DNA of 64,000 nucleotides, taken from the NCBI RefSeq assembly GCF_045037415.1, contig NZ_CP173438.1, one strand, 5' to 3'. This DNA comes from Escherichia coli (GTDB lineage: Bacteria; Pseudomonadota; Gammaproteobacteria; Enterobacterales; Enterobacteriaceae). Each line of letters opens with the position of its first letter. Position 1 is the first letter of the stretch. A program made the position numbers. Shown piece by piece: positions 50,774 through 53,700 of the stretch.

Positions 50774-53700
50774 TGACACTAACGCCCGCACATTGCTGCG
50801 GGCTTTTTGATTCATTTCGCAAATGTGCTGATATTTTCCCCTCTAATCATTACAATTTAAATTTATGAATTATGCATTGATAATCGCTATTATAATATCG
50901 TTCCCCTGTGCATTATTATCAGTTTTTCTGGTATTAAAAGGCTGGGCGCTAATAGGAGATGCAATGAGCCACGCAATGTTTCCTGGCATAGTTCTAGTCT
51001 GGATTATAGGTATGCCGCTGGGAATTGGTGCATTTATTGTAGGACTGTCTTGTGCAATTGCAACTGGCTATCTGAAAGATAATAGCATTATAAAGAAAGA
51101 TACCATTATAGGTATCGTTTTTTCAGGAATTTTTGTCTTGACTATCAACAGGCACAAGTCAGCGGATTACAGATATCATTATTACATTACGGTTTACTCT
51201 GCATGGTATCGCCTACCATTTTTGCCACATTAAAAGCAGTCGGAATTATTCTGTCTATATACTATTAATAGCTCCAGGGTCTATTGCTGTCCTCATCATG
51301 CATCGCTTTCATAAGGCATTACTTATCGCCGTAACGATATCAATAACAATATCAGGCGTATGGTTATTATATTTTCTCAACAGAGCCCCAGCGCCGACAA
51401 TCGTCCTCTTATTTGCTGTAGCATTTCTTTTCGCGCTGATAATAATCAATTTTCGGAAACAATAATCTCAACAGTAGAATAAAGAGGCAAATCAATCATT
51501 ACATATATAAGATGGTGCTAATATTGTACCGCCTTTAAATTGAACTTTATCCTTTCACCCTTACACAATTTAAGGAATGCAGATGACTATTTTATCAGCC
51601 CCCAGCCTTTTTCCTGGTAATCGAAAACTTGAAAATCATTAACTCTAAGAAGTTCTGCCAAATCGTTGAAATTACTTTAAATTAGACTCGAACAAATCAA
51701 TCCCTGATGGGGCTTTTACTTATCCATTTAATCGGGTAGATATCGACCTCCATCTGCCCGCCTCAGATTCGTACCTGGTGGAGGTCTTTTTTCGTTACCT
51801 CTTTCCCCCTTTAGTTCAGTATAAAATCATCAAACTAATGCTGTTCACACTATTTACCTCCAGCATTCTATATAAATAATAGAAATAAAAACCCCAATAC
51901 ATAGTGCATTGGCATGACCAAACATCAATGCCATTATACTCGCCTCTGTTAAATACTCGCTAGTTAATATGATAGGCACGCATGATATAACAATCCATAT
52001 GCTAATACATAAATACATCAGTATTTTTCTCATAGTCAGTCCCTGTGATTAACAATCAAGGCATAGTTAAGCATATTTCACATTCAAACGTAAACATTAT
52101 TAATAACATTATATCAATCGAACTGACATCACGATTCAAGCCCTCTTCAAACTGAAGGTTAGAGCAGCGTAGAACATTTCAAAACAATACACTAAAAAAA
52201 TACCTGAACAAAAAACTTAATTCTTTTTTATTGTGAACTTTAGTGATTTTGTCATGCAACTCTTTATTACATTTAGGCCTGTATTATTTCATGGCAACGC
52301 AGATACAGGACCATTTCTTGTGCTATGGATAAGTAATAAGCTAGTTACATCTTATTAAGAGAACCATTTTCACATATCAAGATATCATCACCACCCACAA
52401 TGAATTAAGTATTTTTCTTATTCTTTAGATTAGATACGTAATGAATCCCTAACTCCATTCGGGTGTCATGGCTCTTTCATTTGAAATATATTCATATCCA
52501 ATGTAATATTTCCATGCGCAAATATAATCACCAACCATACCCATCATTTATTACAGAGAATTATTTTATTCACCGAAAGGTTTCACAAAATATCCCCTGA
52601 TAGAAAACTAAAAAACACTGCATAATATCGCTATTCTGGCACTTGCGAAAAATTATATTCTGCACCTGTTGTAGCGTTCTATTTCTCTGCCTGGCAACGA
52701 ATGCACAATGTCCGCCACAGTTTCTGTTCTAATTTCTTCCTGTGTTACCGCATCCTGTACGGGTAGCGCAACACCAGCATGCTAAGCAAGGCTTTCCCAT
52801 CAGATTTCACTACGACTATTTGGGAGCGAGATGGAATGCAGCAGTAAAACGTGCTGGTATTCGCCGCCGTAATCCGTACCATACGCGACATACTTTTGCC
52901 TGCTGGCTGTTGACGGCAGGAGCGAACCCGGCATTTATAGCCAGCCAGATGGGGCATGAAACTGCGCAGATGGTGTATGAAATTTACGGTATGTGGATTG
53001 ATGACATGAACGACGAACAGGTAGCCATGTTGAATGCGCGGTTATCGTAGTTGCAAAGTTTGCCCTCAATATGCCCCATTTAGTACCAGAGAACTGAAAT
53101 AATGCAAGAAAATCAACAAATTACAAAGAAAGAACAATACAACCTGAACAAATTACAAAAACGTCTGCGTCGTAACGTGGGCGAAGCCATTGCTGACTTC
53201 AATATGATTGAAGAAGGCGATCGCATCATGGTTTGCCTCTCCGGGGGTAAAGACAGCTATACCATGCTGGAGATTCTGCGCAATTTGCAGCAAAGCGCGC
53301 CAATCAATTTTTCGCTGGTGGCTGTTAACCTCGATCAAAAGCAACCGGGCTTCCCGGAACACGTTCTGCCCGAGTATCTTGAAACGCTGGGCGTTGAGTA
53401 CAAGATTGTTGAAGAGAACACTTACGGTATCGTGAAAGAGAAGATTCCGGAGGGCAAAACCACTTGCTCACTGTGTTCTCGTCTTCGTCGCGGTATCCTT
53501 TATCGCACCGCAACGGAACTGGGGGCGACGAAGATCGCGCTGGGTCACCATCGTGACGATATCCTGCAAACGCTGTTCTTAAATATGTTCTACGGTGGCA
53601 AGATGAAAGGTATGCCTCCGAAACTGATGAGCGATGATGGCAAACATATCGTGATTCGTCCGCTGGCCTACTGCCGCGAGAAAGATATTCAGCGCTTTGC

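What the first reader, a model, noticed from the sequence alone, without database searches (positions are those of the whole stretch)
50865..51465. Disrupted ABC-3 family metal-transporter permease gene next to uspF
Seen: an N-terminal reading frame with the characteristic permease motif (LKGWALIGDAMSHAMFPGIV) stops after 122 codons, and a C-terminal-like TM segment is readable in a different frame ending at 51465. The total length is about 600 bp, short for an ABC-3 permease, so there is an internal deletion plus frameshift. No partner ATPase or binding-protein gene is adjacent. The low GC content suggests foreign origin, possibly the relic of a sit/mnt-like metal-uptake operon carried by the former prophage or island.
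Basis: partly seen in the sequence, partly recalled or inferred. Interest (0 to 1): 0.4.

Follow-up and report, generated by a model that had tools for sequence, protein, structure and literature searches.

The report
Dead sitD gene in prophage remnant
This is an ordinary, already-annotated pseudogene: the broken remains of a SitD-type iron/manganese transporter gene, left in the stump of a decayed Rac-type prophage between uspF and ttcA in E. coli.

Summary
Window 50865-51465 is an ABC-3 permease fragment (Pfam PF00950, E=1.5e-25). RefSeq/PGAP already annotates the identical DNA at the same coordinates as "metal ABC transporter permease, frameshifted".

- **Identity:** it is sitD-like. The N-terminal block is 74% identical to E. 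coli SitD and 37% to SitC.
- **Lesions:** it has lost its first ~8 codons together with any sitABC. It also carries a net ~169-nt internal deletion (SitD residues ~104-161), a 1-nt frameshift near 51260 and a 6-nt in-frame deletion.
- **Setting:** it is the left edge of a 2.2-kb AT-rich island (50849-~53050). The island also holds a hokD-like fragment, DUF977/DUF1627 fragments and the last 77 codons of Rac integrase intR next to ttcA.
- **Same locus elsewhere:** 495 of 5,426 complete E. coli genomes carry an intact prophage-borne sitABCD here. 1,043 carry this relic, and others are empty or hold Rac.
- **Decay:** alleles differ by extra 1-nt indels and IS insertions, giving first ORFs of 23 to 199 aa. 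That fits neutral decay.
- **Origin:** the relic does not come from today's sitD allele (pS 0.83, pN 0.16; GC 37% vs 51%). No closer intact relative was found.

Interest is low.

The parts
50784..50808 (+). uspF intrinsic terminator. It is the last conserved chromosomal feature before the island. Core homology with K-12 and YL03 continues to about 50848.
   Evidence: Terminator-like hairpin plus T-run. Sequence matches K-12 and YL03 apart from one substitution (T for C at 50832) up to ...CCCCTCTAATC at 50848.
50849..51134 (+). sitD-like block 1, corresponding to SitD codons 9-103 (74% aa, 68% nt identity). The annotated ATG at 50865 corresponds to SitD Met14. The left edge is the island/deletion boundary.
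   Evidence: tblastn with SitD; codon alignment; DNA alignment; junction read; Pfam ABC-3 E=1.5e-25.
51135..51142 (+). Junction of the internal deletion. About 176 nt of sitD (nt 311-486) are replaced by about 7 nt, a net loss of ~169 nt (SitD residues ~104-161), with a change of frame.
   Evidence: Global DNA alignment to sitD; tblastn frames. The blastn match to sitD spans 692 nt of sitD for 516 nt of query.
51140..51259 (+). sitD-like block 2, corresponding to SitD 162-201 (85% aa identity), in a second reading frame.
51260..51261 (+). 1-nt deletion relative to sitD (sitD nt 605). This is the second frameshift.
   Evidence: SIYY** in one frame versus LLIAPG in the next.
51262..51465 (+). 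sitD-like block 3, corresponding to SitD 203-268 with a 2-codon in-frame deletion, in a third frame. The stop at 51463-51465 is about 17 codons earlier than in E. coli SitD.
51736..51798 (-). hokD-like toxin gene fragment with an in-frame stop (VTKKDLHQVRI*GGQMEVDIY versus HokD VTRKDLCEVRIRTGQTEVAVF).
   Evidence: blastn to annotated hokD; tblastn E=1.2e-5. No Rfam hok/sok hit.
52587..52813 (-). Fragments of lambdoid-prophage DUF977 and DUF1627 genes.
   Evidence: blastn at 78-85% to annotated DUF977/DUF1627 genes in many prophages. PGAP annotates a DUF1627 pseudogene at window 52692-52807.
52819..53050 (+). 3' remnant of the Rac-type integrase gene intR (IntR residues ~335-411).
   Evidence: tblastn at 92.6% over IntR 331-411. 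DNA is 97.8% identical to K-12 from 52819 onward, contiguous through ttcA and dbpA. PGAP annotates 'tyrosine-type recombinase/integrase, incomplete'.
53102..54037 (+). ttcA. Its 5' end (53109-53151) is the sequence duplicated as ttcC at the attR end of prophages in K-12 and YL03. No second copy is present next to uspF in this window.

Best explanation
The element is a non-functional relic of a sitD-type gene, which encodes the second permease subunit of a SitABCD-like iron/manganese ABC importer. It is what remains of a cargo ('moron') operon once carried at the attR-proximal end of a Rac-family lambdoid prophage integrated in ttcA. Inferred history follows. A prophage carrying an AT-rich sit-like operon integrated at ttcA. 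A deletion then ran from chromosomal DNA 72 bp downstream of the uspF stop codon to sitD codon ~8. It removed the ~100-bp spacer, attR (the ttcC repeat), sitA, sitB, sitC and the start of sitD, so the element could no longer excise. Further deletions removed nearly all of the phage body. What survived is a hok-like fragment, DUF977/DUF1627 fragments and the last 77 codons of intR next to ttcA. The sitD remnant additionally lost ~169 nt internally and acquired frameshifts. It has no transport function and is decaying neutrally. Shown directly: the homology, the lesions, the boundaries, the allelic variation, and the occupancy of the same locus by intact sit prophages. Inferred: the order of events, and that the lost upstream genes were sitABC-like.
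For: Pfam ABC-3 E=1.5e-25. tblastn with SitD gives three blocks in three frames at 74%, 60% (85% over its homologous core, SitD 162-201) and 59% identity, against 37% and 43% for SitC. Lesions are mapped. The island's left boundary at 50848/50849 falls at sitD codon ~9. The right boundary is an intR 3' remnant 97.8% identical to K-12 and contiguous with ttcA. There are phage DUF977/DUF1627 and hokD-like fragments. In strain YL03 the order uspF-ttcC(attR)-sitA-sitB-sitC-sitD-phage genes occupies the same position and orientation. 495 of 5,426 genomes hold that uspF-attR-sitA junction, and others have an empty uspF-ttcA site. K-12 has Rac there. The relic island occurs in 1,043 of 5,426 genomes, always with the same truncation and internal deletion in the four alleles sampled. 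Extra 1-nt indels in some alleles shorten the first ORF to 23 or 72 aa, and other alleles give ORFs of 134 or 199 aa. An insertion annotated as an IS1 transposase lies within the relic in NZ_OZ040331.1. The relic departs from 14 of 102 columns that are invariant among 30 SitD orthologues, against a mean of 0.5 for a true orthologue. A terminator lies directly upstream, and direct reading of 50849-50864 shows no Shine-Dalgarno sequence. sitABCD is a documented prophage moron: Perceval in LF82 (PMC9928086), and phage 21 and lambda-like phages carry sitD. PGAP annotates the identical DNA as a frameshifted pseudogene.
Against: No trace of sitA, sitB or sitC survives in the window, so the claim that this was once a full operon rests on analogy with other strains. 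The relic is only 68-70% identical in DNA to any sitD in E. coli. No closer intact relative was found among 5.8 billion proteins or in sequenced phages, so the donor lineage is unknown. There is no DNA similarity between the relic's downstream region and the region downstream of sitD in the YL03 prophage.
Confidence: 0.9

Rival explanations
1. The relic is a recently decayed copy of the same sitD allele that circulates today in E. coli prophages and ColV-type plasmids. On this view all of its divergence comes from decay after inactivation.
For: It has the same locus, position and orientation as the intact prophage-borne sitD in YL03-type genomes. Differences are strongly biased towards A/T, as expected for unconstrained DNA: 119 G/C-to-A/T changes against 36 in the reverse direction.
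Against: Synonymous sites are saturated (pS 0.83) while non-synonymous divergence is 0.16. Neutral decay would raise both equally, so most of the divergence arose while the gene was under purifying selection. The relic is about equally distant (64-69% aa) from 30 SitD orthologues of many genera. It is 68.1-68.7% identical in DNA to both chromosomal and plasmid sitD alleles. Relic alleles themselves differ by only 0-5%.
Confidence: 0.05
2. The 122-aa N-terminal ORF is a functional small membrane protein, for example a truncated permease that modulates the intact SitCD, and it is retained by selection.
For: The ORF is open and hydrophobic and is 100% conserved among many ST131-type genomes. A cluster of 199-aa continuous ORFs exists in public assemblies.
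Against: Other alleles carry 1-nt indels that cut the ORF to 23 or 72 aa, and ORF lengths of 23, 72, 122, 134 and 199 aa are all seen. An IS1 insertion lies inside it in at least one genome. The uspF terminator lies immediately upstream and no ribosome-binding site is visible. The ORF's last ~30 residues are out-of-frame sequence.
Confidence: 0.03
3. The frameshifts are sequencing or assembly errors, and the gene is intact in the real genome.
For: Single-base indels in homopolymer runs are common errors. The variable positions 50903 and 50996 lie in short C and T runs.
Against: The 5' truncation and the ~169-nt deletion cannot be base-calling errors. The identical sequence is found in 570 independent complete genomes at >=99% identity. 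Even with all frames repaired, the product is about 198 aa and lacks ~58 internal residues of an ABC-3 permease.
Confidence: 0.01

Closest known systems
SitD, permease subunit of the SitABCD Fe2+/Mn2+ ABC importer of E. coli, Shigella and Salmonella (homologue: Yersinia YfeD)
   Same: It belongs to the ABC-3 family. Identity to SitD orthologues is 64-69% aa over the surviving 198 residues, and 74% in the N-terminal block that includes the LKGWAL(M/I)GDAMSHA motif. It is much closer to SitD than to SitC. The YfeD relationship is from general knowledge and was not tested.
   Different: It is not intact. It lacks codons 1-8 and ~104-161, has two frameshifts, and has no sitA, sitB or sitC. It is AT-rich (37% versus 51% GC), with saturated synonymous divergence from E. 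coli sitD.
Prophage-borne sitABCD 'moron' operons: the prophage at ttcA in strain YL03 and 494 other complete genomes, Perceval in LF82, and phage 21 / lambda-like phages
   Same: The chromosomal slot (immediately after uspF, at the attR end of a ttcA-integrated prophage) and the orientation are the same. Sit genes as phage cargo are documented (PMC9928086).
   Different: Those operons are complete and sit in apparently complete prophages. Here only a sitD stump remains, attR is deleted, and the sequence belongs to a different sit lineage.
Cryptic prophage Rac of E. coli K-12
   Same: The integration site (ttcA) is the same. The intR 3' end and the intR-ttcA junction are 97.8% identical.
   Different: Rac in K-12 is 23 kb, keeps attR (ttcC) and carries no sit genes. 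Here about 2.2 kb remains and attR is gone.

Membership tests
Pfam ABC-3 (PF00950) metal ABC transporter permease | Significant match to the family HMM | tested here: met
   E=1.5e-25 and 90.6 bits for ORF residues 1-94, at model positions 5-98 of 258.
Pfam ABC-3 (PF00950) metal ABC transporter permease | Full-length uninterrupted permease of about 260-290 aa covering the whole model | tested here: not met
   The element spans 601 nt in three frames. About 8 N-terminal and about 58 internal residues are missing. PGAP flags it as frameshifted.
SitD subfamily (second permease of SitABCD) | Closer to SitD than to the paralogous SitC or other ABC-3 permeases | tested here: met
   Identity is 74% to SitD against 37% to SitC in the N-terminal block. 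It is 64-69% identical to 30 SitD orthologues. DNA-level hits in E. coli genomes are to sitD only.
SitD subfamily (second permease of SitABCD) | Encoded in an operon with a substrate-binding protein, an ATPase and a first permease (sitA, sitB, sitC) | tested here: not met
   tblastn finds no significant SitA or SitB similarity (best E=0.30) in 50777-53101, and SitC matches only the sitD-like blocks. uspF lies directly upstream.
SitD subfamily (second permease of SitABCD) | Match to a curated NCBIfam model above its cut-off | tested here: inconclusive
   Only generic or other-subfamily models hit (AztB, SloB, anchored-repeat permease), all far below their cut-offs. No SitD-specific HMM appeared.
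Rac-family prophage remnant at ttcA | Integrase gene adjacent to ttcA with the Rac-type junction (attL side) | tested here: met
   IntR residues 331-411 match at 92.6% aa. DNA is 97.8% identical to K-12 from 52819 through ttcA and dbpA.
Rac-family prophage remnant at ttcA | attR repeat (ttcC, a duplicate of the ttcA 5' end) near uspF | tested here: not met
   K-12 and YL03 have ttcC about 180 bp after uspF. In the window that sequence occurs only at 53109-53151, in ttcA itself. This fits deletion of attR.
Pseudogene under neutral decay | Reading frame not conserved among alleles; insertions tolerated | tested here: met
   The first ORF is 23, 72, 122, 134 or 199 aa in different alleles. There is an IS1 insertion inside the relic. 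The relic has 14 changes at 102 columns that are otherwise invariant in SitD.

The most novel reading that the evidence does not exclude
The relic records a second, AT-rich sit-like operon lineage whose intact form is not in any database searched here. It would have been carried in the same attR-proximal cargo slot of a ttcA-integrating lambdoid phage as today's sitABCD. That would mean repeated, independent capture or exchange of metal-uptake operons at one phage cargo position.
Probability: 0.45. Interest if true: 0.2.

Novelty: already known. Interest (0 to 1): 0.08.

Why it matters
It matters little. The relic is a useful lineage marker for a large set of E. coli: 1,043 of 5,426 complete genomes, including ST131-type strains and Nissle 1917. 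It is also a tidy example of how a prophage is locked in place by loss of attR and then whittled down, leaving a stump of its cargo operon. It should not be counted as a metal-uptake gene in virulence-factor or transporter inventories. The one mildly interesting point is that the stump comes from a sit lineage distinct from the one now circulating in E. coli phages and plasmids.

Tried and rejected
- **Partner genes:** tblastn with SitA, SitB and the hypothetical protein downstream of sitD in YL03, against 50777-53101. Nothing significant turned up.
- **Closer intact relative among proteins:** the search of 5.8 billion proteins returned only other alleles of the relic (P0001, P0015) and ordinary SitD orthologues at 64-69% identity.
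- **Closer intact relative among phages:** the best hit among sequenced phages was ordinary sitD, at 53% identity with gaps counted.
- **SitD-specific curated model:** NCBIfam has none that hit; only generic models matched, below their cut-offs.
- **RNA families:** no Rfam hok/sok or other RNA family hit in the island at E<=0.1. The only real hit was MicC, outside the island.
- **Recent decay of modern sitD:** rejected on pS 0.83 versus pN 0.16.
- **Selected small ORF:** rejected on the allelic frameshifts.
- **Not run:** The protein database search already covers those sources and found no intermediate.

Full report
**Observation**

The window is E. coli chromosome. The 2.3-kb stretch 50780-53100 is 100% identical to many complete genomes, including O25b:H4-ST131 strains. 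An ATG ORF at 50865-51233 encodes 122 aa and contains LKGWALIGDAMSHAMFPGIV. A second ORF in another frame ends at 51465. Pfam ABC-3 (PF00950) matches ORF residues 1-94 at model positions 5-98 of 258, with E=1.5e-25. In the identical RefSeq record NZ_AP018784.2, PGAP annotates exactly these coordinates as "metal ABC transporter permease, frameshifted". The neighbours are uspF upstream, then a DUF1627 pseudogene fragment, a 3' integrase fragment and ttcA downstream.

**What the gene was**

tblastn with E. coli SitD and SitC, taken from strain YL03, shows three collinear SitD-like blocks in three different frames:

| Window | SitD residues | aa identity |
|---|---|---|
| 50850-51134 | 9-103 | 74% |
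| 51140-51259 | 162-201 | 85% |
| 51262-51453 | 203-268 | ~60% |

SitC matches the same DNA at only 37-43%. At the DNA level, the only other similar sequences in 5,426 E. coli genomes are annotated sitD genes, at 67-70% identity.

**Lesions**

A global DNA alignment to sitD gives four lesions.
- Similarity starts only at codon ~9, so the 5' end is missing.
- About 176 nt of sitD (nt 311-486) are replaced by about 7 nt at 51135-51142. The net loss is ~169 nt, with a change of frame.
- There is a 1-nt deletion at about 51260/51261, which is the second frameshift.
- There is a 6-nt in-frame deletion.

The stop codon also lies about 17 codons earlier than in E. coli SitD. The ATG at 50865 aligns with SitD Met14, so it is not the ancestral start codon.

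**Boundaries and context**

- *Left boundary.* Homology with K-12 and with YL03 downstream of uspF runs through the uspF terminator (50784-50808) to ...CCCCTCTAATC at 50848. From 50849 the sequence instead aligns with sitD codons 8/9 onward.
- *Missing attR.* K-12 and YL03 continue at that point with about 100 bp of spacer and then ttcC. ttcC is the duplicated ttcA 5' end that marks attR of prophages integrated in ttcA. The window has that sequence only in ttcA itself, at 53109-53151. attR has therefore been deleted.
- *Right boundary.* From 52819 the window is 97.8% identical to K-12 across the last 77 codons of the Rac integrase gene intR, then ttcA and dbpA.
- *Interior.* The AT-rich interior (30-38% GC) contains three kinds of fragment. 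There are DUF977 and DUF1627 lambdoid-prophage gene fragments at about 52587-52813. There is a hokD-like fragment with an in-frame stop on the minus strand at 51736-51798. No SitA or SitB similarity is present.

**The same locus in other strains**

- In strain YL03 the order is uspF, attR (ttcC), sitA, sitB, sitC, sitD, then phage tail-fibre genes. This is an intact sit operon at the attR-proximal end of a prophage, in the same position and orientation as the relic.
- A query spanning that uspF-attR-sitA junction is covered at >=80% in 495 of 5,426 genomes.
- Other genomes show an empty site, with uspF directly next to ttcA.
- K-12 has Rac at this site, without sit genes.
- 1,043 genomes have the relic island; the carriers listed include ST131-type strains and Nissle 1917.
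- sitABCD as prophage cargo is documented for prophage Perceval in LF82 (PMC9928086). sitD is also annotated in phage 21 and lambda-like phage genomes.

**Is it dead?**

Four further alleles (98.0-99.4% identical) share the 5' truncation and the internal deletion. They differ by additional 1-nt indels at 50903 and 50996, which cut the first ORF to 23 or 72 aa. Public protein clusters show still other states, of 134 and 199 aa. In the 199-aa form the middle of the "protein" is out-of-frame sequence. One genome has an IS1 element inside the relic, and others have IS1 or IS903B within the island. The conceptual repaired product departs from 14 of 102 columns that are invariant among 30 SitD orthologues, against a mean of 0.5 for a genuine orthologue. 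A terminator lies immediately upstream, and no Shine-Dalgarno sequence is visible before the ATG. All of this fits neutral decay and argues against a selected small ORF.

**Origin**

Against E. coli sitD, the proportion of synonymous differences is 0.83, which is saturated. The proportion of non-synonymous differences is 0.16. GC is 37% in the relic against 51% in the aligned part of sitD, and GC3 is 33% against 57%. Neutral decay raises both classes of change equally. Most of the divergence must therefore predate inactivation.

The relic thus descends from a distinct, AT-rich sit lineage, not from the allele now found in E. coli prophages and plasmids. It is about equally distant (64-69% aa) from SitD orthologues of many genera. 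No closer intact relative appeared among 5.8 billion proteins or in sequenced phages. The identity bands in E. coli genomes were >=95% or 60-80%, with nothing in between.

**Most likely history (inferred)**

1. A Rac-family phage carrying a sit-like operon integrated at ttcA.
2. A deletion from 72 bp downstream of uspF to sitD codon ~8 removed attR and the upstream sit genes, so the element could no longer excise.
3. Further deletions removed the phage body.
4. The surviving stump has since accumulated indels, IS insertions and A/T-biased substitutions.

**Verdict**

The feature is an ordinary, already-annotated pseudogene within a prophage remnant. Novelty is "already known" and interest is low. 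The only mildly noteworthy point is that the stump comes from a sit lineage with no sampled intact representative.

Noticed in passing
window 51736-51798 (minus strand): A decayed hokD-like type I toxin gene fragment with an in-frame stop (VTKKDLHQVRI*GGQMEVDIY). It is 82% identical in DNA to annotated hokD over 62 nt. No Rfam hok/sok RNA match was found.
   Followed up: partly
window 48723-48843 (minus strand): MicC sRNA (Rfam RF00121, 122 bits, full length) lies between nifJ/ydbK and ompN, as in K-12.
   Followed up: yes
window 51854-52033 (minus strand): A 59-aa hydrophobic ORF (MRKILMYLCISIWIVISCVPIIL...) lies in the 30-33% GC part of the island. No annotation exists in RefSeq records and no similarity search was run.
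   Followed up: no
window 51466-52586: About 1.1 kb of 30-38% GC DNA has no ORF over 60 aa. Apart from the hokD-like piece, it has no similarity outside relic-bearing E. coli genomes in the blastn search. Its origin is unknown, presumably further decayed prophage DNA.
   Followed up: partly
window 30162-38678 (minus strand): A very long ORF of 2,838 aa appears in the mechanical ORF list. It was not examined.
   Followed up: no
related genomes (H1-H6; H26): Several genomes have IS1 or IS903B inserted within this island. In NZ_OZ040331.1 the IS1 lies inside the sitD relic itself.
   Followed up: partly
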